Shown here: positions 24,443 through 50,782 of the stretch, in pieces
How positions within the stretch are numbered: position 1 is the first letter of the stretch
Layout of the letters: each line of letters starts with the position of its first letter
Virus record (IMG/VR): IMGVR_UViG_3300013005_000022
Span: 54,443 to 118,442 of that record
Direction: 5' to 3' (one strand)
DNA: 64,000 nucleotides
Source of the DNA: a virus
Lineage: Duplodnaviria; Heunggongvirae; Uroviricota; Caudoviricetes
Notes under the pieces: model-generated
Database searches by the model: none
The model's input: only the letters and a program-made list of their open reading frames with translations
What the model was told of the DNA's origin: nothing
Position numbers and translations under genes: made by a program

Positions 24443-24443
24443 T

Positions 24444-25058: not shown

Positions 25059-25080
25059 ATAACAAAATACAACAATATTA

Positions 25081-31614: not shown

Positions 31615-31637
31615 ACAAACAATTAAAAATCAAAAAA

Positions 31638-32480
31638 ATGGTAAAGAAAATTTTAATCGGAATTGGTGCATTTATTGCATTGATAATTCTATTTCAATCA
31701 TGTGAAAGAATCGATGCAGGACATGTTGGTGTAAAAGTTAATTTGTATGGAAGCGGTAAAGGTGTAGATGATGTTACTGAATGTACTGGTGTAGTATTCT
31801 ATAATCCTCTATCTACTAAGATTTATGAATTTCCAACTTACATTCAACACAAAGAATACAAGAAAACTGAAGATGTTGATAATTCATTTATCGTAAACTC
31901 GAAAGATGGTAGTGAATTTAGCGTTTCACCAATCATGAATTATTCAGTTCAACGTGATAAAGTTCCTGCAATCTTTGCCAAATATCGTAGATCTCTTCCA
32001 GAAATTGAGGAAGGATTTTTAAAGACCGCGGTATATGATGCATTCCGATTGGCAACTAATAAATACACAGCGGATGAATTAATATCTAATCGAGCAGTAT
32101 TTGAAATTGAAGTTCGTCGATTATTAGAAGGACAATTATTGAAAGAAGGATTCATTATCAATCAATTTACATCAAATCTAATTTATCCTGAAACTTTTAA
32201 ACGTTCAATTGAAGCTAAAAACAATGCAGTACAATCTGCACTAAGAGCAGAAAATGAAGTTAAAACCGCTGAAGCACAAGCCAAAATTAAGATTGCAACT
32301 GCAAATGGTAATGCTCAAGCTATGTTAACTGCCGCAAAAGCTGAAGCCGAAGCAAATAGTTTAAAACAGAAAACTATTACGCCAATGCTACTTCAATTAG
32401 AGTGGATTAACAAATGGAACGGAAAGTTACCAGAAACCATGTTAGGTGACAAAACATCTTCCATGATTGGCATTAAATAA
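31638..32480 (+). CDS. SPFH/band-7 (prohibitin/HflC-like) lipoprotein
   Basis: Start moved to the internal ATG giving lipoprotein signal MVKKILIGIGAFIALIILFQSC; C-terminal Ala/Glu-rich coiled coil typical of SPFH proteins. Confidence 0.55.
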   Translation: MVKKILIGIGAFIALIILFQSCERIDAGHVGVKVNLYGSGKGVDDVTECTGVVFYNPLSTKIYEFPTYIQHKEYKKTEDVDNSFIVNSKDGSEFSVSPIMNYSVQRDKVPAIFAKYRRSLPEIEEGFLKTAVYDAFRLATNKYTADELISNRAVFEIEVRRLLEGQLLKEGFIINQFTSNLIYPETFKRSIEAKNNAVQSALRAENEVKTAEAQAKIKIATANGNAQAMLTAAKAEAEANSLKQKTITPMLLQLEWINKWNGKLPETMLGDKTSSMIGIK

Positions 32481-34235: not shown

Positions 34236-37200
34236 TTGAGCGCTAGACAAGTAAATGCACAAGAAGCAATCGTTTCCATTACATCCAAGATGGAAGCGAT
34301 GCTTCAATCTGTGCAACAGCAATACGATCAATCAGTTACTTTGTTAACTCAATTGAACACCACAATGACTGTGGATGTTGGACAGGAGCTTAAGAAACAA
34401 ACTTCTATCCTTATGGCAATTGAGACCAAGTTAGGGTCTCAGGGTGGTGGTGCTGGAGAAGATAAAGTTCTAGGAAAAAACCTTGAGATACTTTCAACCG
34501 GTTTGAATAAACTTGTTTCAGCCGCTGCCAAAATTAAGCCTAAATCCGGTGAAAAGGTAAAGGAATTTTTAGGTAATATAGCCGAAGGTTTAATTAGTAT
34601 AACAGAAAAAATCGACGAAAAGAAAGCCGAAGCTATTTCCAATCTTATTTCAACATTAGGAAAAGGCGTTCTTCTATTCGGATTGACAATGACTCTGTAT
34701 TCAATATTAGGACCGACTGCAATGATCGGTGCTACCTTGTTTGGATTGACTGTAAGATTATTGATGAAATCTGCTGGAGTAGTAGATGAAAATTCTGTCA
34801 AAGGAATGGCTGCCGTTGCCAGTTTAGGATTAGGAGTTTTATACTTCGGTTTAGCAATGACTCTATATGTAATTCTTGCAGTACCGGCAATGTTAGGTGC
34901 TGTTTTATTTGGATTGACCGTTAGACTCTTAATGAAATCTGCTGGAGTAGTAGATGAAAATTCTGTCAAAGGAATGGCTGCGGTTGCGGCTTTAGGTTTA
35001 GGAGTTTTATACTTTGGTTTAGCATTGACCTTCTATGCCGTTCTTGCAGTACCGGCAATGTTAGGTGCTGTTTTATTTGGATTAACTGTTAGGCTCTTAA
35101 TAAAATCTGCCGGTATGGCCGATGCAAAATCGGTTGCTGGAATGCAAGCCCTAGTAGGGCTTGGAAAATCTATTTTAATATTCGGATTAGTTATGTTAGC
35201 CTTAACTATTATAATGCCGATTGTTCTTGTTGGTGCTCTACTCCTTTCATTAACTTTTAAACTTCTATCATGGGGTCTAAAAGAAATGGGTGAAAAGAAT
35301 GTTCGAAAAGGAATTGTAAATATTGCTCTTGGATCTATTGCTATTATCATTTTAGGTCTAACTATTATTGCATTCGCTGCTCAAGTTCCAGTAATGAGTT
35401 CACTTTATGTTCTACTTACTCTTGGTGCATTTGCATTAGCATTCTATGTAATAGGTAAATATTTTGATAACATCTTACGAGGTGCATTAGCGGTTGCCGC
35501 TATAGGGTTAGGTATTGCATTCTTGGCTTTAGGTTTATATTTCTATAAAGAAGTTGGAATGACATGGGAATCTACCGCAATGTTAGGTGCCACTATTGTA
35601 GGTCTTGGTCTTGCTATGTGGGGCTTTGGTAAATTCGCTACCGAAATTTCGAAAGGTGCACTTGCACTTGCAGAAGTTTCTGTTGCCTTTATAATATTTG
35701 GAGTTGGATTAGCTATTATGGGTGCTGCCGTTAAACAACTCTCTTGGGAGAATATTGCAATGATTGGTGCAGTAATCGTTGGAATGGGTCTTATTGCAAC
35801 CGTCTTAGGTATTGGTCCTATTCCTGGTTTTGCTATGGCTGGTGCTGCCGTTCTAGTTGTTCTAGGTGCTGCATTGGTAGTATTCTCTGTAGGATTCTTG
35901 ATTATTGCTACTGCAATGCAATTACTTGATGCTAAATCGATTGTGAATATGGGTAATGCAATTACCACTATTGGAATGTCAATGGTTCCTATTGGTTTAA
36001 TGTCTCCTCTAGTTATTTTAGGATCTGCTGCAATGGTTATTGCCGGTGCCGCATTAGTTCCTTTAACTATAGGCCTTGGTATTTTCCGAGCTATTGGATG
36101 GAAACCTTCGGATGGTGTCGCTTTAGAAAATGCAATGGGTGCTGTTATTAACGGTTTCCTTGGAGGACCTATGCCTGGTGGTATTTTAGCCGGAATTAAA
36201 TTTGCTGCCGGTGCCGCTGCTAGAGCTGCATTACTATTCATAACCGTTCCACCAATGATTCTTGCTGGTGTTGCTTTATTATCAATATCTTTAGGACTTG
36301 CCGCATTTAAGAAGATTGGATTTACTCCTACAGATTCTGCAAATATGGAAGCTGCTATCGGAGGTATCGTTGGAGCATTTTCATTAGTTACTGACAAAGA
36401 ACGTCAGAAGAAAATGGGAATCAATGTCAACTGGCAAGATTTAATGCTTGGTATTATGGCACTTTCTAATGCTGGAAATACCCTATCTTCTTTAGCAAAA
36501 GGTATACAAGCATTCGCTAATCTATCTGTTATAGAATATGAGGTAGTTGGTGCCGGAACTAAAGATGCCAAAATCGTTCCTAAAGGAGTTACCAAATTAT
36601 CGAAATCTGATTTTGAATTAGCTGCCTATGGTATGGCTCAAGTAATTTCTGCAATTGCTGAACCATTCGCTTTAGTAGGTCGATTAGAAAAAGGTGAATC
36701 TACCGGAAATCCATTCTACGATGCAATATTTGGTGGTGGATTTGTATCATCTGGTGTTAGTGCATTAGCTAGATCAGGAGATACTCTTGTTAATTTAGCA
36801 AAAGGAGTTAAAGCCTTTGCTAATCTAGAAATAACTGAATTTGAGGTTATTAATGCCGGAACTAAAAATGCTAAATTAGTTCCTAAATCAGTTAAGAAAA
36901 TGACTAAAACTGACTTCATTACTGCCGGTGAAAATATTGCCGAAATTATTGGAGTTGTTGCCAAAGCCTTTGCCGACGTTGGTAGAATGGAATCTAACTC
37001 TAGTGGTTGGTTCTCTGGTGGATTTATCTCTAAAGGGGTTCAAGCACTTGCTGGTGTTGGTGATAATCTAAAGAATATTACGGAATCTGTTTTGATGATG
37101 GCTAACCGTCAAATACCTCAATTTGAGGTAATCAATCCAGGAACCAAAGATGCTAAAGTTGTTCCTGCTAAACCTTTACAAATTACGGATAGAGATCTTA

Positions 37201-38252
37201 CTAACGCGGCAACTACGATTATGGATATTCTCCAGGTTGTTGCTAGAGGATTCTATGATATTGGTAAAATGGAAGATGATTCGTCTTCTTTCTGGGGTGA
37301 TGGATATATCACAAAAGGGGTTGCGGCTATTGGAGGAATCGGTGATACGGTTTCTAAAGTTACCGAATCGGTTATGAAAATCGCAACCGGAACATTTACT
37401 CCTATGACTGCAGTTGGTAGTGGGAAAGATACTAAACTAGTACCTGGAACTCCTATCAAAGTTACAGATGCAATGTTGAAATCCGCTGCACAGACCATCA
37501 ATTCAATTCTTAATATTTTAGGACATGGAATGTACAAATTTGGTAAATTCTATGAGAGTAATGCAGATACATTCGATGCCGCTTTCAGTGCCGTACCAAC
37601 AATGGCCGATGCAATAGGTAAATTTGCAGAAGTTAATGAAAAATGGTCTAAGATAACTGATGCGGAAAAAGGTCTACAATCATTTAGAAATTTCAATCAA
37701 TCGGTGATGGATATGTATGATCCTAAAAAGCAAAAATCTCTTCCTGAACAAGCTCAATATATGTTACTATTCGTTAAAGGAATAGAAAGACTGGCTGCAC
37801 CAGCCGAACAACTCGGTAAGGTTGCATCTAACGTAGAACGTATAGAAAAAGCAATGAAAAATATCAAAACACATGTTAATGGATTTGATATGGAAAGACT
37901 TACTAAAACCGATTCAATGTTTAAGTCAATGGCAATTCTATCTAAGAGTCCAGAAGCCATGGCTGCTAGAATTAACGATACACTTAAAGAAGCATTCGAA
38001 GAATTTGGTAAAGCTCTTTCTACCGCAATTAAGGAAGCCGGTGCTGCATCAGGTGGTGGTGTTCCAGTAGGAGATACTCCTCCAACCGGAAATCCACCAG
38101 TAAATCCTAAAGGAGGTAATCCACAAGGAAATCCTAAAGGAACTACAACCCCATCTATTACTCCGGCAATGATACAACAAGCAATGTCTGCTGCATTAAG
38201 TAGTGCAACTCTTACGGTGAAACCTGCCACTAATTCTCAATGGCCAGGATAA
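34236..38252 (+). CDS. tape measure-like protein with internal repeats and transmembrane-like Gly/Ala-rich segments
   Basis: 1338 aa; ~56-aa tandem repeats (GLTVRLLMKSAGVVDENSVKGMAAVA..LGLGVLYFGLAMTLY..); four C-terminal repeats of ..AFANL..E(F/Y)EV(I/V)..GTK(D/N)AK.VPK..; Pro/Gly-rich tail; preceded by chaperone-sized ORFs. Confidence 0.55.
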   Translation: MSARQVNAQEAIVSITSKMEAMLQSVQQQYDQSVTLLTQLNTTMTVDVGQELKKQTSILMAIETKLGSQGGGAGEDKVLGKNLEILSTGLNKLVSAAAKIKPKSGEKVKEFLGNIAEGLISITEKIDEKKAEAISNLISTLGKGVLLFGLTMTLYSILGPTAMIGATLFGLTVRLLMKSAGVVDENSVKGMAAVASLGLGVLYFGLAMTLYVILAVPAMLGAVLFGLTVRLLMKSAGVVDENSVKGMAAVAALGLGVLYFGLALTFYAVLAVPAMLGAVLFGLTVRLLIKSAGMADAKSVAGMQALVGLGKSILIFGLVMLALTIIMPIVLVGALLLSLTFKLLSWGLKEMGEKNVRKGIVNIALGSIAIIILGLTIIAFAAQVPVMSSLYVLLTLGAFALAFYVIGKYFDNILRGALAVAAIGLGIAFLALGLYFYKEVGMTWESTAMLGATIVGLGLAMWGFGKFATEISKGALALAEVSVAFIIFGVGLAIMGAAVKQLSWENIAMIGAVIVGMGLIATVLGIGPIPGFAMAGAAVLVVLGAALVVFSVGFLIIATAMQLLDAKSIVNMGNAITTIGMSMVPIGLMSPLVILGSAAMVIAGAALVPLTIGLGIFRAIGWKPSDGVALENAMGAVINGFLGGPMPGGILAGIKFAAGAAARAALLFITVPPMILAGVALLSISLGLAAFKKIGFTPTDSANMEAAIGGIVGAFSLVTDKERQKKMGINVNWQDLMLGIMALSNAGNTLSSLAKGIQAFANLSVIEYEVVGAGTKDAKIVPKGVTKLSKSDFELAAYGMAQVISAIAEPFALVGRLEKGESTGNPFYDAIFGGGFVSSGVSALARSGDTLVNLAKGVKAFANLEITEFEVINAGTKNAKLVPKSVKKMTKTDFITAGENIAEIIGVVAKAFADVGRMESNSSGWFSGGFISKGVQALAGVGDNLKNITESVLMMANRQIPQFEVINPGTKDAKVVPAKPLQITDRDLTNAATTIMDILQVVARGFYDIGKMEDDSSSFWGDGYITKGVAAIGGIGDTVSKVTESVMKIATGTFTPMTAVGSGKDTKLVPGTPIKVTDAMLKSAAQTINSILNILGHGMYKFGKFYESNADTFDAAFSAVPTMADAIGKFAEVNEKWSKITDAEKGLQSFRNFNQSVMDMYDPKKQKSLPEQAQYMLLFVKGIERLAAPAEQLGKVASNVERIEKAMKNIKTHVNGFDMERLTKTDSMFKSMAILSKSPEAMAARINDTLKEAFEEFGKALSTAIKEAGAASGGGVPVGDTPPTGNPPVNPKGGNPQGNPKGTTTPSITPAMIQQAMSAALSSATLTVKPATNSQWPG
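34677..35110 (+). repeat. ~168-bp tandem DNA repeat (~2.6 copies) inside the tape-measure-like gene
   Basis: Near-identical DNA units begin at ~34677, ~34846 and ~35013. Confidence 0.7.
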
Positions 38253-42498: not shown

Positions 42499-43098
42499 AT
42501 GGCTAAAAACGAATCATTAAAGGAATTAGGAATCGAGTTTAAAGAAACTAGATCAGAACGAGTATTCACCGATTTATATCATCGTCTTAAACCAGGGTTA
42601 ACAAATTACGTATTTCAAATCGTAAAAGATTACGATATGTCTAATCATATTGTTTCTAGCGTAATGTCTGAGGTTTATAACAAAATCGATAAATACGATC
42701 CTAAATGGCATATCTCTACATGGATTTATCGTATTGCATATACACATGCTTGTGGTTATCTTCGAGCTAAAAAAGTTCAACGAACGGTTTCTCTATCCGC
42801 ATTCGATAACGATGAAAATCGCAATCGTCTACATAAACTAGAATTCGATTCTATCGAAGATCACCGTGATGCTATTGAAAAACGTGAAGATGAAGATGCG
42901 GAAAAAGCTCATGTTAATTATCTTCGTACAATCGTCGATAATTTACCAATTGAATATCGTGAAGTGGTTGTGGAAAAATTCTACAATGATTTAAAGTATG
43001 ATGAAATCGCTGCCAAGCTAAATATTCCACTTCATACCGTAAAAAACCGAATTTCACGAGGTAAACGAATCATTCAAGAGGAACTCACCAAAAAATAA
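42499..43098 (+). CDS. RNA polymerase sigma factor, sigma-70 family (ECF-like)
   Basis: Region 2-like YRIAYTHACGYLR; region 4 HTH DLKYDEIAAKLNIPLHTVKNRISRGKRIIQEEL. Confidence 0.75.
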   Translation: MAKNESLKELGIEFKETRSERVFTDLYHRLKPGLTNYVFQIVKDYDMSNHIVSSVMSEVYNKIDKYDPKWHISTWIYRIAYTHACGYLRAKKVQRTVSLSAFDNDENRNRLHKLEFDSIEDHRDAIEKREDEDAEKAHVNYLRTIVDNLPIEYREVVVEKFYNDLKYDEIAAKLNIPLHTVKNRISRGKRIIQEELTKK

Positions 43099-43114: not shown

Positions 43115-43147
43115 CAATTGTCACTTATCATTGATAGGTGACAATTG
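43115..43147. promoter_or_regulatory. perfect 10-bp inverted repeat (operator/terminator candidate) between the sigma factor gene and the secreted-protein operon
   Basis: CAATTGTCAC-N13-GTGACAATTG. Confidence 0.5.
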
Positions 43148-43221: not shown

Positions 43222-45144
43222 ATGAAGAAATTGCTTAAATCATTTTTACTGATGATTATTTTAGCTCTTCCGATTCTTACATTTGCACAATCCGGTCCAC
43301 CGGCACCAAGTGCAGGAATTTGGGCTTTAATAGATACTAACTATACAGTTGGTACTTCAACAGTAGGAATCTCTCAGGCTAAAATCACTCTAAAAAATAC
43401 AACGGCTACTTTATATACCGGTGTTCAATTTAGAGTATTTTACGACAAAAATGCTTTCTCATCAGCATCAGTTGCTTTGTTAGGATCTACTACAAATTTA
43501 TATTTACAATCAGTAGATAACAACACAGCAGGTTATGTGACTATCTCTTTAGTTTATACAGGAAGTAGTTCTGCATATACATTAGCCGATGGAGAAAGAT
43601 TTGAACTTACGTTTAACCACGTATCTCCGGCAGCATTCTATGCTTTGCCATCGATCAGTGCATTAACTTGGACTGGTTCTGCTACTTACACTCAAGTGGC
43701 TGCTGAACAAAGTGGTTTAGATACCACTTTAAGTTTACACAGCTATGGTGGAAACTGGTTACGTCCAGAACTTGATTACCATGGTACATTTACTAACGTA
43801 ACTGGTACTGGTGCAAAAAACCTTACTCTTGCATTAGAGAAAAAAGTTAAGATTGGTGGAACATGGGGAACTCATGCAACATACATAACAGACATTAATG
43901 GAGACTTTGCATTCTCAGAAATTATCGATACAACATATTATGATGTTCGTTTAGCAGTTCAAGGAGATTCCATGACTGTTGGTAACGTTATTTCAACTGC
44001 CGATGCTCAGTTAATTAATCAATGGGTTCTTGGTGGAGCTACTCCTACAGGATTCGATTTTTATACCGGAGATGTTAATGGATCTAATGGAATATCGATC
44101 ACTGATGCTTATGGAGTATTTGGAAGAATCGCTGGTAGATTCTCTACTTGGCCTAACTCAGTTAAAGATGTTAAATTCTTTACCGCTGCTGAATATGCAA
44201 CTATTACCGGAACACCATCAACAAACTTTACTGGATCTATCCCCGGAGTTACCAACTTCTATTTTGATATTCTACCTGGAGCACCTGATAGTGTAACTTA
44301 TTATGTATGTGTACCTGGTGATGCAAATGGAACCGGTTATAATATGGCTCGTTTAACCCCAATTGACGTGGTAATCAATCCACCAGCTGGAACTCCTGCA
44401 CAACAAGAAAACGTAGTAGATATGAAAGTTGAATATGACTTTCCTACATCTTCTATGGAAGTTAGATTACCTTCATTATCAGTTAAAGAAGGAAACCTGG
44501 TAGAACTTCCTGTTAGTGTACATACAAATGGTCAAGATATTTCTGCTTTACAACTTTCAATGTTATACGATCAAACTCTTTTACAATTCAAAGATGTTCA
44601 AAACTCACCAAAAGCAATGTTTTGGATGTCTTCTATCAATCCTACTGGAGGTATTGTAGAATGGTCTGGATATGACCCATCAGCGAACAAATCATATATG
44701 ATACCTGATGGTTATGAAGTATTCACTCTTCGTTTTTTGGCTCTTAAACCTCAAAATGAATGGAATCAATCACCTTTATATACAACTAGAAAATTTTCAG
44801 GAAATTCAAATTCTAAAGACATGACAATTACTCCAGCTAATGGAATTCTAATTGTTGCTAAAATGGCAAATGTTGGTGGAATCTTAGACGAAAGAGAAAT
44901 GACAGTTTTTCCTAATCCTACTACCGGAGAAATCACGGTAGAGTTTAGTGTAAAACAGACTGGTCCAGTTAAGTTATATATAGTAGGTATGAACGGAGTT
45001 ATATCTCATGTAATTCTTGATAGAGATATGCCAGAAGGTGAATACATTTATACTTCTAATATCAATCATCTTACTCAAGGAATATATGTGGCTTCATTAC
45101 AAGCTAAAAATCAAAAAAACTCTGCTAAAATAATTAAAAACTAA
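43222..45144 (+). CDS. secreted protein with type IX secretion system C-terminal sorting domain
   Basis: Signal peptide MKKLLKSFLLMIILALPILTFAQ; C-terminal ~80 aa VFPNPTTGEITVEF...VKLYIVGMNGVI...LTQGIYVASLQAKN..SAKIIKN matches the T9SS type-A CTD pattern. Confidence 0.75.
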   Translation: MKKLLKSFLLMIILALPILTFAQSGPPAPSAGIWALIDTNYTVGTSTVGISQAKITLKNTTATLYTGVQFRVFYDKNAFSSASVALLGSTTNLYLQSVDNNTAGYVTISLVYTGSSSAYTLADGERFELTFNHVSPAAFYALPSISALTWTGSATYTQVAAEQSGLDTTLSLHSYGGNWLRPELDYHGTFTNVTGTGAKNLTLALEKKVKIGGTWGTHATYITDINGDFAFSEIIDTTYYDVRLAVQGDSMTVGNVISTADAQLINQWVLGGATPTGFDFYTGDVNGSNGISITDAYGVFGRIAGRFSTWPNSVKDVKFFTAAEYATITGTPSTNFTGSIPGVTNFYFDILPGAPDSVTYYVCVPGDANGTGYNMARLTPIDVVINPPAGTPAQQENVVDMKVEYDFPTSSMEVRLPSLSVKEGNLVELPVSVHTNGQDISALQLSMLYDQTLLQFKDVQNSPKAMFWMSSINPTGGIVEWSGYDPSANKSYMIPDGYEVFTLRFLALKPQNEWNQSPLYTTRKFSGNSNSKDMTITPANGILIVAKMANVGGILDEREMTVFPNPTTGEITVEFSVKQTGPVKLYIVGMNGVISHVILDRDMPEGEYIYTSNINHLTQGIYVASLQAKNQKNSAKIIKN

Positions 45145-45470
45145 TGTCAGAAGAAACACAAGATCACAATGACGGAACTTGGTCAGGTCTAAAGAAAACT
45201 CTTATTGGAACAATTTCTACAGCAGTACTTGCTGGAGGAACTTGGTTAACCACTACTTTATTTAATGGCGGTAGTGACGATAAAGAAGAAACTAAAACTG
45301 AACAGGCTGCTCCAGCTCCTGTTATTGTTAACGTTCAACAAAATCAAGAGAACACTCAAAAACAACAAAACAATGGTGGTACCAACACTATCATCAGAGA
45401 AAGAGTTATAGAGAAACCTGTTGAAAAGAAAGAAGAAAAGAAAAAAGAATCTGAGGATGCTCCTTGGTAA
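45144..45470 (+). CDS. membrane-anchored protein with disordered Lys/Glu-rich tail
   Basis: One transmembrane helix (LIGTISTAVLAGGTWLTTTLF); start overlaps upstream stop. Confidence 0.45.
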   Translation: MSEETQDHNDGTWSGLKKTLIGTISTAVLAGGTWLTTTLFNGGSDDKEETKTEQAAPAPVIVNVQQNQENTQKQQNNGGTNTIIRERVIEKPVEKKEEKKKESEDAPW

Positions 45471-45489
45471 ACTAAAAACAAATAAAAAA

Positions 45490-45780
45490 ATGGCTAAATT
45501 ACAAAACACCAAACCAAACTTCTTTAAGCGAATGTTTATGGATGATAATGATATTAATGAAAAATCTATCGTTGGATTCTGTGCATTTTTAGTAATGTGT
45601 ATTGCATTTGGAGTTGATATTTACACCGGAATTAAAGGTATGCCTTTTGAGATTAACGAATTCATTTTTGATGGATTTATGGTTATCACTTTAGGTGCAT
45701 TCGGTATTGCTTCAGTTGACAAATACATAACTGGAAAGAAAGGCGTAAGTTCATCTAATGATGAGACTCCAGTAGAATAA
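45490..45780 (+). CDS. small membrane protein
   Basis: Start moved to the internal ATG after the upstream stop; two hydrophobic helices. Confidence 0.45.
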   Translation: MAKLQNTKPNFFKRMFMDDNDINEKSIVGFCAFLVMCIAFGVDIYTGIKGMPFEINEFIFDGFMVITLGAFGIASVDKYITGKKGVSSSNDETPVE

Positions 45781-45793
45781 AAAAATAAAAAAC

Positions 45794-46513
45794 ATGAAAG
45801 CACTTATAACTTTTATAATGCTGATATTTTTTGCTCAAACTAGTATTGCTCAGATTGGCACCGTCAAGTCTGAGCAATACCAAGCAGAGTTTGAGAAGAA
45901 GCAATCACTCGATGCTTTACCAGAATATACAGACACAATCAAGATTCCTATTCAGATTCTTAAAATCGGAATCAATGAAGAGTTATACGAAATGTATCCT
46001 GAATTGAAAGATAAAAGAGTTGGATTAGGAGTAACTAATATTGTTCTTGAATATCTCGAATACACCAATCGTTTCGTTTTTACTGAAGATAAACTTGAAA
46101 TTAAAGAGCGAATGGTTCAACAATTTAAAGCATCTGATAAAGGCTTTACTGAAAATAAAATCGACGGTAGAGGAAAGATTAAGTTAGCTAAATACTTTGT
46201 GTATATAGAAGTCTATGATTTTTCGGTATCCGATGATGAAGTTGTAAAGATTAACGGAGAATCCAAGACTACTCAGATAACTCGTTTAGGATTACAAGTT
46301 AAATTCGTAGATGCTGAAACCGGAGAGATTATTATGGGATCTGGACTCGGAGAAGCTACTACCGTTAAGACTGCTACTATTTTAGATGGGGTTGACGATA
46401 GTGATATTAAATTCAATCAATCACATATTGGTATAACTACCAAGAAATCTCTTGAAACGGCATCTTCTAGAATCGTTGCAAGAATGATAAAAAAAGGAAT
46501 TTTCAAATCGTAA
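45794..46513 (+). CDS. secreted hypothetical protein
   Basis: Signal peptide MKALITFIMLIFFAQTSIAQ. Confidence 0.55.
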   Translation: MKALITFIMLIFFAQTSIAQIGTVKSEQYQAEFEKKQSLDALPEYTDTIKIPIQILKIGINEELYEMYPELKDKRVGLGVTNIVLEYLEYTNRFVFTEDKLEIKERMVQQFKASDKGFTENKIDGRGKIKLAKYFVYIEVYDFSVSDDEVVKINGESKTTQITRLGLQVKFVDAETGEIIMGSGLGEATTVKTATILDGVDDSDIKFNQSHIGITTKKSLETASSRIVARMIKKGIFKS

Positions 46514-48208
46514 ATGTATGTTAGAAAATTCATATTCTTTTTTGTATTTTTGTTTATTACAATTGCAAGTTACGGTCAGACATTCAATTACTCGTATACT
46601 GACCCTTGTACTGGTGTAATAAAAACTATGCAGGTTCCATCAAATGGAATAACCATAACTTATTATGGACAAGTAAACACATTCCAACCATCAGATTTCT
46701 ATAATGGTGGTTTTGAGAGTTGGGCTCAAGGAGTCTATTCTTCATTTGGTAACAACAATCCATGTGCATCAGTGGTAGGTCTTCCTACTGGAATTAATAT
46801 TGCACAAAACACTGCAACTAATTTCTTAAGTATAGTAAATTCATTATCAGCTATTAGTGATTTGGCTGCATTGAATGGAGCTACCAATATTCTATCTGGA
46901 GTAGGTAGTGTATCAAATGCAAGTGGAAAAAAGGAAGAAAATAAAAAAGGAGGAAATGGTACACCAAATACTAACTCTGGAGGAAGTACACAAAATTCTG
47001 GAGGAAGCTCTACTACTCCAGGAACCTCAGGAAATCAAGGAACTTCTTCTGGAAGCTCAGGATCTTCTACTACACAAGGATCAAACAATACAGGTTCATC
47101 TCAATCACCTCAGACAGGAGGTCAATCGTCTCAGTCACCTGTAGGATCTCAACAAAATCAAACCGGAACAAATGGAAACAGTAGCAACAGTAGTACCAAT
47201 AGTAATTCTAGTGGGACTAGTAATACTAGCGGTAATACAAACAATACTCAACCTTCAACTGGGTCAAATCAAACCCAAACCGGAGGAACACAAACTGGCA
47301 ATACATCGTCTGGAAGCACAAATGCAAATAGCGGCAATGCTAATCAAGGTGGGAGTGGAACCTCAAGCGGCAATGGATCGAGCGGCCAAAATAGTAGCGG
47401 ATCATCTTCGTCCGGAGGATCTTCTGAAGGAAGTGGAACAGGAAATCAGCAAGGAGGAAGTGAAGCAACAAAAAGCGAAGAAGGCGGCAAAACGAACCTA
47501 GTTGGTGGATCGGTTGCATCTATAGGTAATTCAACTAATTCTGGAAGTGGATCTGCATCGAGCGAAAGTAGAAGACCAACTATACTTGCTAGTAGTGATT
47601 TGGTTGGATTTAATTTTAAAGATTCTGATGTTAGCAAAGGAGGTAAATTTACCGGAGGTTATACATCATTAAGATGGGATGGACAAAGATCTCACGGATT
47701 TTTAGTCGATTATACAACCGCTCTTAAAGGACCTAATGTTACTGCATTCTATGCATATATCAAGAAGAAAAGAATTGATTTGATATCAACTACTCTTACA
47801 TTAGGATTCGATAGAAAAACTTCAGTATATGGAACTTTGGCCGTAGGTCAAATGTGGAACATTGATAAAAAGAAAAAACTTAAAGCCGTTTACATGTTAA
47901 CCGGATCCTTTGGTAGTGTATACGAAGAAGCTTTCGTTGGAACCGCTGCAATTGCCGGTGTAATGTACGATTTAAAAGTTTCAAAACGAATAGATATTAA
48001 ACTAATGGGGCTATATGTCTATGCTCCTTATGTTAGTTATTATAATGACATACTACTAAAATCTCCTCATGTAGTTCTTCCTATCATTGGAACTAACATT
48101 GGACTTACGAAGAGATTTAAGTTAAACATAAATGGTGGTGGCGCTTGGGCACTAAACGAAAATGCACTGAACTACACCATAATGATGGGTACTAGATTTT
48201 TATTATGA
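46514..48208 (+). CDS. secreted protein: signal peptide, ~230-aa Ser/Gly/Thr/Asn/Gln low-complexity region, C-terminal outer-membrane beta-barrel-like domain
   Basis: Signal peptide ...ITIASYGQ; long low-complexity region; C-terminal alternating-hydrophobic strands ending ...GTRFLL (aromatic terminus typical of outer-membrane barrels). Confidence 0.55.
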   Translation: MYVRKFIFFFVFLFITIASYGQTFNYSYTDPCTGVIKTMQVPSNGITITYYGQVNTFQPSDFYNGGFESWAQGVYSSFGNNNPCASVVGLPTGINIAQNTATNFLSIVNSLSAISDLAALNGATNILSGVGSVSNASGKKEENKKGGNGTPNTNSGGSTQNSGGSSTTPGTSGNQGTSSGSSGSSTTQGSNNTGSSQSPQTGGQSSQSPVGSQQNQTGTNGNSSNSSTNSNSSGTSNTSGNTNNTQPSTGSNQTQTGGTQTGNTSSGSTNANSGNANQGGSGTSSGNGSSGQNSSGSSSSGGSSEGSGTGNQQGGSEATKSEEGGKTNLVGGSVASIGNSTNSGSGSASSESRRPTILASSDLVGFNFKDSDVSKGGKFTGGYTSLRWDGQRSHGFLVDYTTALKGPNVTAFYAYIKKKRIDLISTTLTLGFDRKTSVYGTLAVGQMWNIDKKKKLKAVYMLTGSFGSVYEEAFVGTAAIAGVMYDLKVSKRIDIKLMGLYVYAPYVSYYNDILLKSPHVVLPIIGTNIGLTKRFKLNINGGGAWALNENALNYTIMMGTRFLL

Positions 48209-49878
48209 GAAAGTTTATCACCACACTAATTGCCGTTTTGGTAACATGTGCTACATATGCACAAACGTTTACATATTCAGGCTACATCTATAACGCAAAT
48301 GGTACCGGAGCAGTAAATGTTCCAGTAAAGTTGTATAAGAGAACAACTCCAGTATTGACTGGATTCACATCTCAAACAAATTATAACGGTCACTCATATT
48401 ACCGATCAACTAGTAGTATGACTTGGACTGCTGCAAAAACTGCATGTGAAAATATGAACGGTCACTTAGCTACCGTATCTAATGCAGCGGAAAATAATTT
48501 CCTATTCAATACTTGGCCATCTGGTTGGATTGGTTATTATCAAGATAAGGTTGGTGGATATACTTATTCAGAACCGGCCGGTGGATATCGTTGGACTGAA
48601 AGTAAAGTAACTTCCGGATTAGCATCGGATTATGATGTTTCATCTTATACATCAGGATCTACTTTAACTGATATCAAATCAAGTATTAATGCCACTCTTT
48701 ATAATACTCCATCATACTCTAGTACAGGAGGAAAGTACTTAGCATTTAATGGATCTAATCAATATGCAATTACCGGCGATTTAGCTTCTAAATTCTCTTC
48801 AACTGCAATATCAGTAGTTACATGGATTTATCCTACAGGAAATGGTGTTATTGCATCAGAATTAAATATTGCAAGTCCTACATCCGGATGGCATGAATCT
48901 ATAATAGAAATCACTGGGTCTAATACTCTTCGAATCGGTCTTTGGAACGGAACTGGAATTACTCAATTAAGCACTGCTATTACTCTTAATACCTGGAATA
49001 TGGTTTGTATTACATATGATGGAACTACAATGAGAGGATATCTAAATAATGTGAGTTTTGGTAGTGTTAACTTTTCTCGTCAGGCAGCCTTTTTACATAG
49101 TGGTAATGGACAACAACATTTTGCATTCGGTTTAAGTGATGCAACCCATATGGGATCTGGTGCTTATGGTTCTTTTAGATTAGGACTTATTCAATTTTTC
49201 GATAGAGCAATTACCGTTGATGAAATTGATAGAACTTTCAATTTTTATGCATACCGTTATCGAACAAACCAATATACAAATTGGAATCCCGGAGAACCTA
49301 ATGATGCAGGAACCGAAGACTATGCTCAATTTGTTGGTGGTGGAAAATGGAATGATCTTCCGAATATGTCTCTTCCTTATGTGATTGAATTTGATTATGT
49401 TGTTGGATTTACTTCATGGGTTTTACATCAAACAGTTTATACGAATTCATCAGGATTCTATTCATTTTCTCAGGCATCAAATCCATCAGTTGAATGGTAT
49501 ATACAAATTGATGCACCTACTCCTGTAACTATTCATCAAACTTCGGATTTAAGTTCAATAGGAAATATTGTATTAGGTAGTACTACCAAGAAATCTTTAC
49601 ATTGGAATATGTTCGATGTGAATAACGATGGAAATATAACAGTATCCGATGCATACTATGTGAGTGGAAAGAAAAATGGAATATTTGCCAGTTGGATAGG
49701 ATCTCAAAGATCTGCTCTATATACGATTGCTCAATTTAATGCACTTAATTCTGGAACAACTAATTTAAAGGCAACATATCCAGGAGTAAGTTCTTTTACG
49801 ATATCTACTCCAGTGAGTGGCGGATCTACAAATTATTATCTAATAGCTCCAGGTTATGCTGGACAAGTAACATATTAA
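48205..49878 (+). CDS. secreted C-type lectin-like protein with large inserted domain
   Basis: Signal peptide ...VTCATYAQ; CTLD N-half WTAAKTACENMNGHLATVSNAAENNFL..WIGYYQD and C-half WNPGEPNDAGTEDYAQFVGGGKWNDLP separated by a ~230-aa insertion. Confidence 0.6.
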   Translation: MRKFITTLIAVLVTCATYAQTFTYSGYIYNANGTGAVNVPVKLYKRTTPVLTGFTSQTNYNGHSYYRSTSSMTWTAAKTACENMNGHLATVSNAAENNFLFNTWPSGWIGYYQDKVGGYTYSEPAGGYRWTESKVTSGLASDYDVSSYTSGSTLTDIKSSINATLYNTPSYSSTGGKYLAFNGSNQYAITGDLASKFSSTAISVVTWIYPTGNGVIASELNIASPTSGWHESIIEITGSNTLRIGLWNGTGITQLSTAITLNTWNMVCITYDGTTMRGYLNNVSFGSVNFSRQAAFLHSGNGQQHFAFGLSDATHMGSGAYGSFRLGLIQFFDRAITVDEIDRTFNFYAYRYRTNQYTNWNPGEPNDAGTEDYAQFVGGGKWNDLPNMSLPYVIEFDYVVGFTSWVLHQTVYTNSSGFYSFSQASNPSVEWYIQIDAPTPVTIHQTSDLSSIGNIVLGSTTKKSLHWNMFDVNNDGNITVSDAYYVSGKKNGIFASWIGSQRSALYTIAQFNALNSGTTNLKATYPGVSSFTISTPVSGGSTNYYLIAPGYAGQVTY

Positions 49879-49883
49879 ATATC

Positions 49884-50339
49884 ATGAAAAAACTACTTCT
49901 TTTATTACTACTTTTGCCAATCCTATCATTTGGACAAATCAATCCATGTGTTCATGTGGATTCGATATACTCAACCGCCAAATTTAAGGAAATGGGAAAT
50001 CGAGATATTCGTTTCGGTATCAAACAAATGGCTGAAGATATTCTATCTGAAAAATACTGCATCAATGCATCATCGCCGGATGTAGATATTGAGGTGTTCT
50101 TCTTCGGTTTGCCTAGAACTACAATTAGAATAGTTGGTGTTGAAAAGACTAATCAGATAACACAAGTTGGGATTCGTATTTATTATAACGGTTCAAAATA
50201 TGAAGCATACGGAGAATCCGATACTGAAATTAGAACTATAATGTTAGAGGTTGCAGAAGGTCAAATGCCATTCTCTAAAATGACAATATCCAATGCAATA
50301 AAAAAAGCACTAGTATCATGCGTATCACAAATGCCTTAA
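49884..50339 (+). CDS. secreted hypothetical protein
   Basis: Signal peptide MKKLLLLLLLLPILSFGQ. Confidence 0.5.
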   Translation: MKKLLLLLLLLPILSFGQINPCVHVDSIYSTAKFKEMGNRDIRFGIKQMAEDILSEKYCINASSPDVDIEVFFFGLPRTTIRIVGVEKTNQITQVGIRIYYNGSKYEAYGESDTEIRTIMLEVAEGQMPFSKMTISNAIKKALVSCVSQMP

Positions 50340-50782
50340 TCTTCTTTCTTCTTCTTTTACCTACATTAACATTTGGACAAATTACAGTTCAAGATGTTGG
50401 TGATAGATGGAAGGCTAAAGTTGATTCGGCAATTGAATTAATAAAGAAGACAGATACCATATCGTATCAAATTCTGATTGAGAATTGTAAAGATGTTGAA
50501 TTTATTATTGGTAAGTACTCAACTACAAAACCTCCTTATACGATTGCAATAACCACTAAAGACATGAACCTAAATTCAATCAATAATATTGCTGCGGTTT
50601 TGGTTCATGAATCCTATCATCTTTTTATATACAATAACAAGATACGTTACTCTATTAACGAAGAAGAGGCAGTTTGTTATCAAAGAGAATATGATTTCCT
50701 ATGTAAGCTATCCGATGTTGAAGATTGGTTATTCCTTAATGCCATGAATAACATCATTCTTTATCGAACTCCGAAGAAGTAA
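50318..50782 (+). CDS. secreted small protein with HExxH motif (zincin-like candidate)
   Basis: Signal peptide ...LPTLTFGQ; VLVHESYHLF contains HExxH. Confidence 0.45.
   Translation: MRITNALIFFLLLLPTLTFGQITVQDVGDRWKAKVDSAIELIKKTDTISYQILIENCKDVEFIIGKYSTTKPPYTIAITTKDMNLNSINNIAAVLVHESYHLFIYNNKIRYSINEEEAVCYQREYDFLCKLSDVEDWLFLNAMNNIILYRTPKK

What the first reader, a model, noticed from the sequence alone, without database searches (positions are those of the whole stretch)
43222..45144. Phage protein carrying a type IX secretion C-terminal sorting domain
The C-terminal ~80 residues (VFPNPTTGEITVEF ... VKLYIVGMNGVI ... LTQGIYVASLQAKNQKNSAKIIKN) match the conserved motifs of T9SS type-A CTDs, and the N-terminus has a cleavable signal peptide. 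T9SS is restricted to Bacteroidetes. A phage-encoded T9SS substrate would be exported and probably attached to the host surface by the host machinery, which is an unusual form of viral exploitation of a host secretion system. The ~560-aa passenger has no recognisable motif and is beta-rich.
Basis: partly seen in the sequence, partly recalled or inferred. Interest (0 to 1): 0.75.

Follow-up and report, generated by a model that had tools for sequence, protein, structure and literature searches.

The report
Phage cohesin–dockerin protein with T9SS signal
A large phage of Flavobacterium-type bacteria encodes a secreted "scaffold" protein that carries the host's type IX secretion address tag and leads a conserved block of phage genes for cell-envelope proteins, which suggests the virus rebuilds the surface of the cell it infects.

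Summary
ORF 43222-45144 (640 aa) has a Sec signal peptide and a C-terminal T9SS type-A sorting domain that passes the curated cut-offs of both Pfam PF18962 and TIGR04183. The window is a T4-like myovirus of a Bacteroidota host.

Its architecture is SP, cohesin-like domain, β-sandwich, dockerin-like segment, X, cohesin, linker, CTD.

The gene is not an oddity. IMG/VR holds 306 viral contigs with a relative, and only one of 185,579 bacterial species genomes does (a phage fragment). All domains are under purifying selection.

It is the first gene of a conserved module of signal-peptide or membrane-anchored proteins, kept in 51 of 52 loci. The module includes a CsgG/PelC/LptE-fold protein, a barrel-like protein, an HExxH protein, and a variable lectin-type protein that ends in the same dockerin-like segment (49 of 52 loci).

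In Flavobacterium phage immuto the gene is naturally split into two proteins, each with its own signal peptide.

Best reading: a phage-encoded, T9SS-exported cohesin scaffold that recruits dockerin-tagged partners on or around the infected cell. Export, anchoring and binding are untested. Phage T9SS cargo was already reported in 2020, so this is a new variant, not a new kind.

The parts
43222..45144 (+). Target gene: 640-aa secreted modular protein (SP, cohesin-like, β-sandwich, dockerin-like, X, cohesin, linker, T9SS type-A CTD)
   Evidence: ORF. Pfam and NCBIfam. PDB profile. AF2 model with mean pLDDT 66. Foldseek. 120 of 120 best homologues carry PF18962.
43222..43287 (+). Sec / signal peptidase I signal peptide (aa 1-22), predicted cleavage TFA|Q with Gln at +1 (Bacteroidetes Q-rule)
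   Evidence: Hydrophobic core aa 4-24. Q23 is invariant in 52 homologues. Small residues at -3/-1 plus Q at +1 in 62 of 69 distinct orthologues, although SP identity is only 31%.
43309..43716 (+). N-terminal cohesin-like β-sandwich (aa about 30-165)
   Evidence: pLDDT 81-94. Pfam Cohesin below the gathering score but the only consistent hit in three divergent orthologues (E 0.012, 0.046, 0.0039). Weak in-register profile match to the C-terminal cohesin (P 0.016). dN/dS 0.18.
43729..43962 (+). β-sandwich, CarboxypepD_reg/Ig-like (aa about 170-247)
   Evidence: pLDDT 78-91. CarboxypepD_reg hit in 3 of 20 members of the shared-module alignment (best E 7.7e-4). Part of the segment shared with the lectin protein.
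43963..44154 (+). Dockerin-like segment (aa 248-311): helix 'STADAQLINQWVLGG' followed by Ca-loop 'DVNGSNGISITD' (DxNxSxxxxxxD)
   Evidence: PDB profile hit to dockerin 4uyp_B (E 0.0024). With the broader profile, five different dockerins are among the top hits. Pfam Dockerin_1 in 14 of 20 module members (best E 2.8e-4), all weak; the target itself scores 13.4 bits. D284, N286 and D295 are invariant. Lowest dN/dS of all domains, 0.13. The AF2 model is not confident here (pLDDT 27-59).
44155..44343 (+). Small α/β domain X ending in the invariant 'GDANGTG' (aa 312-374). This is the exact end of the N-terminal half in the naturally split forms.
   Evidence: pLDDT 59-88. G366, D367, A368, N369, T371 and G372 are invariant. 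Same breakpoint in immuto gp014, P0127 and P0142.
44449..44856 (+). C-terminal cohesin (aa about 410-545)
   Evidence: Pfam Cohesin 42.1 bits for the whole protein, above the gathering score of 24.1, best stretch aa 412-528. PDB profile hit to 6kg8/6kgc cohesins over aa 409-545. The whole-protein model matches cellulosomal cohesins with TM to target 0.70-0.75.
44857..44901 (+). Variable, disordered linker (aa 546-560), the expected region of CTD cleavage
   Evidence: pLDDT 25-35. dN/dS 0.73 and 33% identity.
44902..45141 (+). T9SS type-A C-terminal sorting domain (aa 561-640)
   Evidence: PF18962 at 35.5 bits and TIGR04183 at 30.6 bits, both above cut-off. PDB profile hits to 5jvk C-terminus and to the F. 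johnsoniae CTD chain 8glj_D. Seven predicted strands. Hallmark residues conserved in 66-68 of 68 orthologues. dN/dS 0.38.
45144..45470 (+). Module gene 2: 108-aa protein with a moderately hydrophobic, TM-like N-terminal segment (about aa 19-39, read by eye) and a K/E-rich tail
   Evidence: Sequence. No 15-residue window passed my hydrophobicity threshold, so the TM call is tentative. Homologue present in 48 of 52 loci. No family match.
45457..45780 (+). Module gene 3: small protein with one clear hydrophobic segment (aa 48-68 of the 119-aa ORF); a second TM and a charged C-terminus are read by eye. Less conserved.
   Evidence: Hydrophobic segment. Gene call of 107 aa in L085. Detected in 23 of 52 loci.
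45794..46513 (+). Module gene 4: 239-aa secreted protein with the CsgG/PelC/LptE fold; the most conserved module member
46514..48208 (+). Module gene 5: 564-aa secreted protein with an N-terminal domain, a long S/G/N/T/Q-rich low-complexity region, and a conserved C-terminal domain of about 230 aa with alternating hydrophobicity (barrel-like; untested)
   Evidence: Sequence. A7 alignment at 70% column identity. No PDB, Pfam or NCBIfam hit, including PorP/SprF.
48205..49878 (+). Module gene 6: variable-head secreted protein (C-type lectin plus LamG here) that ends in the same β-sandwich plus dockerin-like plus X segment as the target; no CTD
   Evidence: Pfam Lectin_C, Laminin_G_3 and a weak Dockerin_1 hit (18.2 bits). 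Its aa 404-552 match target aa 214-368 at 31% identity, E 5e-13. A gene ending in this segment is present in 49 of 52 loci, with heads of 324-994 aa.
49884..50339 (+). Module gene 7: 151-aa secreted protein with two invariant cysteines
   Evidence: 51 of 52 loci. A4 alignment. No PDB hit.
50318..50782 (+). Module gene 8: 154-aa secreted protein with an invariant HESxH motif and downstream EE (zincin-like)
   Evidence: 50 of 52 loci. H97, E98, S99, H101, E116 and E117 are invariant. No PDB hit.

Best explanation
The gene encodes a phage-made cargo of the host's type IX secretion system that acts as a cohesin-type scaffold.

Proposed sequence of events:
1. During infection of a Flavobacterium-like (Bacteroidota) cell, the pre-protein crosses the inner membrane through Sec.
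2. Signal peptidase I cuts after TFA and exposes Gln23, which the host probably cyclises to pyroglutamate.
3. The β-rich passenger folds in the periplasm.
4. The C-terminal seven-strand type-A CTD is captured by PorV inside the SprA translocon and pulled out.
5. The CTD is cut off in the variable linker (aa 546-560). The protein is then either linked to surface lipopolysaccharide or released.
6. Outside, its cohesin domain(s) bind the Ca-dependent dockerin-like segment. That segment is present in the protein itself and at the C-terminus of a variable lectin-type protein encoded four genes downstream. The result is a phage-specified protein assembly carrying carbohydrate-binding heads on or around the infected cell.

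The gene acts together with a co-inherited set of phage envelope proteins, including a CsgG/PelC/LptE-fold ring-type protein and a barrel-like protein, which may provide the route by which the CTD-less partners reach it.

Shown here: domain content, sorting signals, conservation, phage restriction, synteny, and the fused/split architectures.

Inferred, not shown: export, anchoring, cohesin-dockerin binding, and the biological pay-off (surface remodelling, adhesion or aggregation, or exclusion of other phages).
For: Sorting signals:
- The CTD passes two curated models and matches solved CTDs, including the F. johnsoniae CTD chain 8glj_D.
- Hallmark residues are conserved in 66-68 of 68 orthologues.
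- The signal peptide with the Q-rule is kept while its sequence drifts.

Selection and distribution:
- dN/dS is 0.13-0.38 in all domains, against 0.73 in the linker.
- 1741 homologues were found; the best 120 are all full-length and carry PF18962 (119 also PF00963).
- 306 IMG/VR contigs encode a relative.
- The passenger has only 123 representatives among 1.84 billion proteins, and the full-length ones are all 627-668 aa.
- Only one bacterial-genome hit was found, and it is a phage fragment carrying the same module.

Scaffold logic:
- Cohesin scores above the gathering cut-off, and the model matches cellulosomal cohesins.
- The dockerin-like segment is the most constrained part.
- The same segment ends a second, variable-headed secreted protein in 49 of 52 loci. 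This is the classic scaffoldin/cargo layout.

Rosetta-stone evidence:
- In phage immuto and in metagenomic relatives the protein is split exactly after 'GDxNGTG' into SP-Coh-β-Doc-X and SP-Coh-CTD.
- The second half has acquired its own Q-rule signal peptide. Both halves therefore need Sec export and presumably work together.

Non-virion context:
- Every product of the block 43222-50782 has a signal peptide or a hydrophobic, TM-like segment.
- The block is conserved in 51 of 52 loci, while the upstream genes vary.
Against: - There is no experimental evidence of secretion, surface location or binding.
- The dockerin call is weak: below the Pfam gathering score everywhere, PDB profile E 0.0024-0.024, the first Ca loop is degenerate, and AF2 is not confident there.
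- The N-terminal 'cohesin' is below the gathering score.
- Topology problem: the dockerin-bearing partners (the lectin protein, and the N-terminal half in split forms) have no CTD, so how they would meet a T9SS-exported cohesin is unexplained.
- Type-A cargo may be released rather than anchored (PMC10994853).
- CTDs can be incompatible between species (PMC11285876), and the host's T9SS was not examined.
- PHROGs has no matching family, and no virion proteome is available to exclude a particle association.
Confidence: 0.5

Rival explanations
1. A T9SS-secreted but released, soluble protein. The CTD only serves for export, and the protein (with or without partners) acts in the medium, for instance by binding polysaccharides or particles, or by coating neighbouring cells. 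It is not anchored on the infected cell.
For: [quoted passage not shown] Nothing in the sequence distinguishes the two fates. The lectin and LamG heads in the module would also suit a soluble carbohydrate-binding complex.
Against: A scaffold with two cohesins and its own dockerin is more typical of anchored or polymerising assemblies. The co-inherited outer-membrane-type proteins point to a cell-envelope site of action.
Confidence: 0.22
2. The protein is part of a phage device that interferes with the host envelope rather than displaying anything. It might occupy or plug the T9SS translocon and attachment complex, so that T9SS-dependent surface adhesins used as phage receptors are no longer delivered (superinfection exclusion). 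Alternatively, it might take part in envelope disruption and timing of lysis together with the CsgG-like pore.
For: - The module contains small membrane proteins, including one of possibly holin-like topology, and a CsgG/PelC-fold protein.
- For the CsgG/CsgF genes of marine phages a role in lysis regulation has been proposed (PMC9004378), and superinfection avoidance was discussed (PMC7029224).
- From my own knowledge, not tested here: resistance of Flavobacterium to phages often maps to gliding and T9SS genes.
Against: - Strong constraint on the cohesin, dockerin and lectin-type modules, and the variable heads, is hard to explain for a mere plug.
- No endolysin or spanin was recognised in the block.
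- The CTD looks like an ordinary cleavable type-A signal followed by a free linker.
Confidence: 0.15
3. A virion protein (decoration or fibre protein) whose C-terminal domain is just an Ig-like β-sandwich that resembles a CTD. The hydrophobic N-terminus is not a functional signal peptide.
For: Ig-like domains are common on phage particles. crAss-like BACON proteins next to T9SS sorting-domain proteins lie near head and tail genes (PMC6949934). Structural genes are scattered through this T4-like window.
Against: - The signal peptide is kept, with the host-specific Q-rule, in 62 of 69 orthologues.
- In split forms the C-terminal half acquired a new signal peptide of its own.
- All neighbours in the block are secreted or membrane proteins, and none matches a PHROG structural family.
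- The CTD keeps the residues needed for translocon recognition, including the near-C-terminal Lys.
Confidence: 0.06
4. A recently captured host gene with no function for the phage (a passenger or decaying gene).
For: Cohesin, dockerin, lectin and CTD domains are typical bacterial modules, so an ultimate bacterial origin is likely.
Against: - Purifying selection acts on every domain.
- Over 300 viral contigs carry it across 52-93% identity, with the same architecture.
- Synteny is conserved.
- Essentially no counterpart exists in 185,579 bacterial species genomes.
Confidence: 0.02

Closest known systems
T9SS type-A CTD cargo proteins of Bacteroidota (for example F. johnsoniae RemZ and NucA, P. 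gingivalis RgpB, T. forsythia KLIKK peptidases)
   Same: An N-terminal Sec signal peptide with Gln at +1. A C-terminal seven-strand β-sandwich of about 80 residues that matches PF18962 and TIGR04183. It has the PNP, Lβ3β4-Gly, GxY and near-C-terminal Lys features and is preceded by a flexible linker.
   Different: It is encoded by a lytic-type T4-like phage rather than the bacterium. The passenger is a cohesin/dockerin-type scaffold rather than an enzyme or gliding adhesin. Export has not been shown.
Phage-encoded T9SS cargo of 'Cryophage' (Bellas et al. 2020, PMC7468147) and T9SS sorting-domain proteins of crAss-like contigs (de Jonge et al. 2019, PMC6949934)
   Same: A phage gene carrying a T9SS type-A sorting domain, interpreted as hijacking the host system to put proteins on or outside the cell.
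   Different: In Cryophage these are three hypervariable enzyme or PA14 genes in metagenomic islands of one phage. Here it is a conserved gene with a fixed architecture, under purifying selection, in hundreds of contigs and embedded in a conserved multi-gene envelope module. It has a cohesin/dockerin passenger and a cultured representative (immuto).
Cellulosome-type cohesin-dockerin assemblies (scaffoldins with cohesins plus an anchoring module; cargo proteins with a C-terminal dockerin)
   Same: One protein has cohesin modules plus a cell-surface targeting device. A separate protein with variable heads ends in a dockerin-like Ca-loop segment. A scaffold that also carries its own dockerin resembles adaptor scaffoldins such as ScaB, the best PDB dockerin hit (4uyp_B).
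   Different: The anchor is a T9SS CTD instead of SLH or sortase. The heads are lectin/LamG-type, not glycoside hydrolases. The dockerin has only one canonical Ca loop and is preceded and followed by extra domains. The system is phage-encoded and in a Gram-negative host, so the partners would have to cross an outer membrane. Binding is untested.
Phage 'curli-like' CsgG/CsgF gene clusters of pelagimyophages and OM43 phage Melnitz (PMC7029224, PMC9004378)
   Same: A T4-like aquatic phage carries a conserved cluster of secreted proteins built around a CsgG-fold outer-membrane protein plus small hypothetical proteins. Its function is unknown, and proposals include surface change, aggregation and lysis control.
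   Different: There is no detectable sequence relation: Pfam CsgG is not hit, and tblastn finds only immuto. No CsgF was recognised. The fold match cannot separate CsgG from PelC or LptE. The Bacteroidota version adds a T9SS-targeted cohesin scaffold, a lectin-dockerin protein, a barrel-like protein and an HExxH protein.

Membership tests
T9SS type-A C-terminal sorting domain (PF18962 / TIGR04183) | Matches the curated HMMs above their cut-offs over the full model length | tested here: met
   PF18962 scores 35.5 bits against 27, covering model positions 1-74 of 75. TIGR04183 scores 30.6 bits against 23, covering 1-72 of 72. All 120 best homologues carry PF18962.
T9SS type-A C-terminal sorting domain (PF18962 / TIGR04183) | Located at the extreme C-terminus of the protein | tested here: met
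   The domain spans aa 561-640 of 640, and the stop codon follows directly.
T9SS type-A C-terminal sorting domain (PF18962 / TIGR04183) | Seven-stranded Ig-like β-sandwich (PMC11285876, PMC10994853) | tested here: met
   AF2 predicts seven strands: 561-564, 570-577, 581-589, 594-603, 606-613, 620-628 and 631-639. Confidence is only moderate, pLDDT 61-75.
T9SS type-A C-terminal sorting domain (PF18962 / TIGR04183) | Functionally important residues: the conserved Gly of loop β3-β4 and the almost invariant Lys near the C-terminus that contacts PorV | tested here: met
   G592 (in 'GMNG', compare RgpB 'DMNG') is present in 68/68. K639 is present in 66/68. K636 is K or R in 66/68. A Lys occurs in the last 8 residues in 68/68.
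T9SS type-A C-terminal sorting domain (PF18962 / TIGR04183) | N-terminal Sec signal peptide, because cargo must first reach the periplasm | tested here: met
   Heuristic only, since no SignalP was available: K-rich n-region, hydrophobic core aa 4-24, T-F-A|Q cleavage motif, Q23 invariant.
T9SS type-A C-terminal sorting domain (PF18962 / TIGR04183) | T9SS-dependent export and CTD removal in a host that has a T9SS | not testable with these tools
   The host is inferred as Bacteroidota or Flavobacterium from the cultured relative, the Q-rule and the Bacteroidetes-type ECF sigma factor. No secretion data exist.
T9SS type-B CTD cargo with a PorP/SprF-like partner | Matches the type-B CTD model, with an adjacent PorP/SprF-family outer-membrane protein | tested here: not met
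   NCBIfam lists only type-A-related models for the target at E up to 1. The barrel-like neighbour 46514 has no NCBIfam or Pfam hit at all.
Cohesin (PF00963) | HMM match above the gathering score and a cohesin jelly-roll fold | tested here: met
   The whole protein scores 42.1 bits against 24.1, with the best stretch at aa 412-528. Foldseek of the whole-protein model gives TM to target 0.70-0.75 against cellulosomal cohesins. The N-terminal domain (aa 30-165) scores only 16.2 bits when scanned alone, below the cut-off, so it is inconclusive.
Dockerin (PF00404) | Two tandem Ca-binding loop plus helix segments that match the HMM above the gathering score | tested here: inconclusive
   The target scores 13.4 bits (E 0.09) and the neighbour 18.2 bits, against a gathering score of 22.9. 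Of the 20 module members, 14 hit Dockerin_1 at E up to 0.1. PDB dockerins are the top profile hits (E 0.0024 to 0.024). The second loop is canonical (DxNxD/SxxxxxxD, with N and the last D invariant), but the first loop is degenerate. The AF2 model has low confidence here.
Dockerin (PF00404) | Ca-dependent binding to a cohesin | not testable with these tools
CsgG curli secretion channel (for neighbour 45794) | Sequence membership (PF03783), lipoprotein signal, and a nonameric 36-strand barrel | tested here: not met

The most novel reading that the evidence does not exclude
The block 43222-50782 is a self-contained, phage-encoded cell-surface display system. It would consist of:
- a cohesin scaffold delivered and anchored by the host T9SS;
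- dockerin-tagged interchangeable lectin-type heads;
- the phage's own outer-membrane export device (a CsgG/PelC/LptE-fold ring plus a barrel protein, with small membrane or periplasmic helpers and a zincin-like protease) that brings the CTD-less partners to the surface.

The phage would then re-coat the infected cell with a carbohydrate-binding layer. That layer could glue infected cells to particles or to sister cells, or mask receptors. It would be the first cohesin-dockerin 'mini-cellulosome' of viral origin, and the first that combines two outer-membrane routes.
Probability: 0.25. Interest if true: 0.85.

Novelty: new variant of a known kind. Interest (0 to 1): 0.62.

Why it matters
Phages are known to change their host's surface mostly through enzymes that modify LPS, or through single exclusion proteins. 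This case is different: a widespread lineage of large aquatic Bacteroidota phages (hundreds of contigs, 120-430 kb) devotes about 7.5 kb to a conserved set of exported proteins.

The lead gene uses two host-specific address labels, the Bacteroidetes Q-rule signal peptide and the T9SS CTD. It has the architecture of a scaffoldin.

If export and cohesin-dockerin pairing are confirmed, it would show that viruses can use the T9SS to install modular protein assemblies on infected cells. It would also extend cohesin-dockerin biology to viruses and to T9SS anchoring. And it would give a function to the puzzling CsgG-like clusters seen in several marine T4-like phages.

The question is directly testable, because a cultured pair exists: Flavobacterium sp. 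LMO8 and phage vB_FspM_immuto. There the protein is naturally split into its two halves.

Tried and rejected
- Near-identical DNA in GenBank phages: none.
- PHROGs for the target and for six module proteins: nothing.
- Sequence and profile searches of the accessory proteins against the PDB, and against NCBIfam and Pfam: no significant hit. One search failed on a frame error.
- Sigma factor as a dedicated regulator: rejected. The ECF-type sigma gene upstream is shared by only 3 of 83 loci, and the upstream regions share no motif.
- Immuto's two CDSs as a frameshift or sequencing error: rejected. The second CDS starts with its own signal peptide, and the same breakpoint recurs in metagenomes.
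- Further CTD proteins in the window: none with the family-specific HMM, and none among ten other large ORFs with Pfam.
- Bacterial origin or prophage: the genome scan found one locus only, a phage-like contig in a 'Sphingomonadaceae' MAG that carries the same module.
- N-terminal versus C-terminal cohesin relatedness by hhalign: weak (P 0.016).
- Literature on phage cohesin-dockerin: nothing relevant.
Full report
**1. The observation**

The C-terminal 80 residues are a bona fide T9SS type-A sorting domain.
- Pfam PF18962 scores 35.5 bits (gathering score 27, E 1.2e-8) over essentially the whole model.
- NCBIfam TIGR04183 scores 30.6 bits (cut-off 23).
- A profile of 52 homologues also hits solved CTDs, including the F. 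johnsoniae CTD chain 8glj_D.

The N-terminus is a typical signal peptidase I signal: MKKLLKSFLLMIILALPILTFA|QS.

Pfam Cohesin scores 42.1 bits (gathering score 24.1).

**2. The genome is a phage of a Bacteroidota host**

All real genes of the window lie on one strand. They include a large terminase, tail sheath, baseplate hub, both topoisomerase II subunits and PhoH.

No near-identical GenBank phage exists. The window is 100% identical over 20.7 kb to a 141.5-kb JGI metagenome contig (L085), and the same protein occurs on a 160-kb contig.

The only cultured relatives of the target are the Flavobacterium phages vB_FspM_immuto (160 kb).

Three host-lineage fingerprints agree:
- The CTD itself.
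- The Bacteroidetes Q-rule (PMC5837995; a phage precedent is in PMC10367356). All six signal peptides in the block, and that of the secreted nuclease at 25964, are followed by Gln. This Gln is invariant or nearly so in the family alignments.
- A Bacteroidetes-type ECF sigma factor upstream.

The A-rich, Shine-Dalgarno-free leaders also fit a Bacteroidota host.

**3. Anatomy of the protein**

These sources were combined: Pfam, PDB profiles, an AF2 model with mean pLDDT 66 whose N-terminal domains score 80-94, and Foldseek.

| Segment | Residues | Evidence |
|---|---|---|
| Signal peptide | 1-22 | |
| Cohesin-like β-sandwich | about 30-165 | Cohesin is the only consistent hit but lies below the gathering score |
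| CarboxypepD_reg/Ig-like β-sandwich | 170-247 | |
| Dockerin-like segment | 248-311 | helix 'STADAQLINQWVLGG' plus canonical Ca loop 'DVNGSNGISITD'; D284, N286 and D295 invariant |
| Small domain X | 312-374 | ends in the invariant 'GDANGTG' |
| Low-confidence connector | 375-409 | |
| Cohesin | 410-545 | above the gathering score; the whole-protein model matches cellulosomal cohesins with TM to target 0.70-0.75 |
| Variable linker | 546-560 | pLDDT 25-35 |
| CTD | 561-640 | seven predicted strands |

The features that experiments link to CTD function are a conserved Gly in loop β3-β4 and an almost invariant Lys near the C-terminus that contacts PorV (PMC11285876, PMC10994853). Both are conserved: G592 in 68/68 and K639 in 66/68. 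PNP, G620 and Y622 are each present in 68/68.

**4. It is a conserved, phage-restricted gene under selection**

- The word-indexed search returned 1741 homologues. The best 120 are all full-length (58-93% identity) and all carry PF18962; 119 also carry PF00963. They sit on contigs up to 358 kb.
- IMG/VR holds 306 contigs with a relative.
- An exhaustive HMMER search with the passenger alone found only 123 representatives among 1.84 billion. The full-length ones are all 627-668 aa, which leaves room for a CTD. Of 26 scanned relatives, 14 have PF18962; the other 12 were included for their different lengths and architectures.
- Among 185,579 bacterial and archaeal species genomes there is a single hit, a 16.5-kb contig of a MAG. 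It carries the same phage module.

Nei-Gojobori dN/dS across 82 orthologues:

| Domain | dN/dS |
|---|---|
| Dockerin-like | 0.13 |
| Coh1 | 0.18 |
| X | 0.19 |
| β-sandwich | 0.23 |
| Coh2 | 0.26 |
| CTD | 0.38 |
| Signal peptide | 0.53 |
| Linker | 0.73 |

So the CTD is selected, though more loosely than the passenger. This is expected for a fold-defined signal.

**5. Context: a conserved module of envelope proteins**

Upstream genes, including the sigma factor, are shared by only 3-5 of 83 loci. The downstream genes travel with the target.

In 51 of 52 loci with at least 6.5 kb of downstream DNA the order is: target > 108-aa membrane protein > (small membrane protein) > 239-aa protein > (564-aa protein) > (variable protein) > 151-aa protein > 154-aa protein.

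Six of the eight products, including the target, have a signal peptide. The other two (45144 and 45421/45457) have a hydrophobic, TM-like segment, weak in 45144. Six of the eight convincing signal peptides in the 64-kb window lie in this block.

- **564-aa protein (46514).** It has a long S/G/N/T/Q-rich region and a conserved C-terminal domain with alternating hydrophobicity. It has no detectable relatives.
- **154-aa protein (50318).** It has an invariant HESxH motif.

Comparable CsgG/CsgF clusters of unknown function have been described in pelagimyophages and in the OM43 phage Melnitz (PMC7029224, PMC9004378). They are not detectably related in sequence to this module.

**6. Evidence for a cohesin-dockerin partnership**

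Target aa 214-368 (β-sandwich plus dockerin-like plus X) is homologous to the C-terminus of the lectin/LamG protein encoded at 48205 (31% identity, E 5e-13).

An HMM of this segment finds a second ORF ending in it in 49 of 52 loci. In 48 of them the ORF lies downstream within the module. The N-terminal heads are variable, 324-994 aa.

The joint alignment shows the canonical loop 'DVNGDGKITISD', with N and the last D invariant. Dockerin_1 is the only family hit consistently (14 of 20 members), though always weakly. Dockerins also head the PDB profile hits.

This is the scaffoldin/cargo layout of cellulosomes.

Independent support comes from a natural fission. In phage immuto the gene is two genes.
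- gp014 consists of SP, Coh1, β-sandwich, Doc and X. It ends at 'GDVNGTGLN'.
- gp015 has its own Q-rule signal peptide (…SLYS|QVQ) followed by Coh2 and the CTD.

The same breakpoint occurs in metagenomic proteins P0127 and P0142, and P0172 is a stand-alone SP-Coh2-CTD protein.

Fused in one lineage and split in another argues that the halves work together. The new signal peptide on the second half shows that periplasmic export of both halves is selected, which counts against a virion role.

**7. Mechanism and its weak points**

The best-supported reading (confidence about 0.5) runs as follows:
1. Sec export and signal peptidase I cleavage.
2. Folding in the periplasm.
3. CTD-dependent passage through SprA/PorV.
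4. CTD removal.
5. The cohesin(s) bind the dockerin-like segments of the protein itself and of the lectin-type partner on or near the infected cell.

That the protein is a T9SS cargo at all I rate at about 0.85.

Unresolved:
- Whether the protein is LPS-anchored or released. Both fates are known for type-A cargo (PMC10994853).
- How the CTD-less dockerin proteins cross the outer membrane. The options are piggy-back through the T9SS, the module's own CsgG/PelC-like device, or contact only after lysis.
- The dockerin call is weak.
- There is no experimental evidence.

Rival readings are a soluble secreted factor, an interference or lysis device, a virion protein, and a decaying host gene. Only the last is contradicted outright by the data; the virion reading is argued against but not excluded.

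**8. Novelty**

Phage-encoded T9SS cargo is not new. Bellas et al. 2020 called their three Cryophage genes 'a unique occurrence' (PMC7468147), and de Jonge et al. 2019 noted T9SS sorting-domain proteins in crAss-like contigs (PMC6949934).

What I could not find in the literature:
- a viral cohesin/dockerin-type scaffold;
- its T9SS targeting;
- its fused and split forms;
- its membership of a conserved eight-gene envelope module with a CsgG/PelC-fold protein.

I classify it as a new variant of known kinds, with good experimental access through the cultured immuto and Flavobacterium sp. LMO8 pair.

Noticed in passing
window 45794-46513: A 239-aa secreted protein with the CsgG/PelC/LptE fold. 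It is the most conserved gene of the module and is very abundant in metagenomes (6513 hits at E up to 1e-3 among 8000 scored candidates). It has an SPI-type signal, not a lipoprotein signal. Some JGI records call it CsgG, but Pfam CsgG does not match.
   Followed up: yes
window 46514-48208: A 564-aa secreted protein with a low-complexity region of about 200 residues rich in S/G/N/T/Q, and a conserved C-terminal domain of about 230 residues with an alternating hydrophobic pattern (possibly an outer-membrane barrel). It has no relatives in the PDB, Pfam or NCBIfam.
   Followed up: partly
window 50318-50782 and 49884-50339: Two small secreted proteins that end the module. One has an invariant HESxH motif plus EE (zincin-like metallopeptidase signature). 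The other has two invariant cysteines. Neither has a detectable relative among solved structures.
   Followed up: partly
window 45144-45470 and 45457-45780: Two small membrane-type proteins directly after the target. The first has a moderately hydrophobic, TM-like N-terminal segment and a K/E-rich tail. The second has one clear hydrophobic segment (a second TM is read by eye) and a charged C-terminus, a holin-like topology. A possible link to lysis control was not examined.
   Followed up: no
L001 6010-7834 (Flavobacterium phage vB_FspM_immuto_2-6A gp014 and gp015): The orthologue is naturally split into two secreted proteins at the 'GDxNGTG' motif, and the second has its own signal peptide. 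GenBank annotates gp014 as 'hypothetical protein' and gp015 as 'cohesin domain-containing protein', with no mention of the T9SS sorting domain.
   Followed up: yes
window 42499-43098 and 43115-43147: A phage-encoded ECF-type sigma-70 factor (TIGR02937 at 68 bits; best match to the Bacteroidetes subfamily) lies just upstream. It is followed by a perfect 10-bp inverted repeat with a 13-nt loop (43115-43124 and 43138-43147), which may be a terminator or operator. The sigma gene accompanies the target in only 3 of 83 loci.
   Followed up: partly
window 21083-25962: A deoxy-amino-sugar gene cluster in the phage: NDP-hexose 2,3-dehydratase, GFO/IDH/MocA oxidoreductase, DegT/DnrJ aminotransferase, an unexamined 204-aa ORF (24444-25058), and a family-2 glycosyltransferase. 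A further aminotransferase lies at 62032. It could serve DNA or surface-glycan modification. Its relation to the lectin domains of the module is unknown.
   Followed up: no
window 25964-26539; also L002 7169-7876, L003 918-1625, L001 4347-4925: A secreted non-specific nuclease (Endonuclease_NS) with a Q-rule signal peptide. In more distant relatives (L002, L003) an Endonuclease_NS gene sits immediately upstream of the cohesin-CTD gene, and in immuto one gene further upstream. Of note, a NucA nuclease is a known T9SS cargo in F. johnsoniae (PMC10994853).
   Followed up: no
L088 (RFPL01000028.1, 'Sphingomonadaceae bacterium' MAG WB4_6_108): The only hit among 185,579 species genomes is a 16.5-kb contig that carries the same phage module, with the HExxH gene placed upstream. 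It is most likely a phage contig mis-binned into an alphaproteobacterial MAG.
   Followed up: partly
window 31321-32480 and 8103-8921: An SPFH/Band-7 protein preceded by a small membrane protein, and a formamidopyrimidine-DNA glycosylase (Fpg) gene. Both are uncommon accessory genes for a phage.
   Followed up: no
window 34236-38252 and 10437-12260: Two large ORFs (1338 aa and 607 aa) have no PHROG or Pfam match at all. The first follows the baseplate-hub gene and may be a structural or fibre protein.
   Followed up: no
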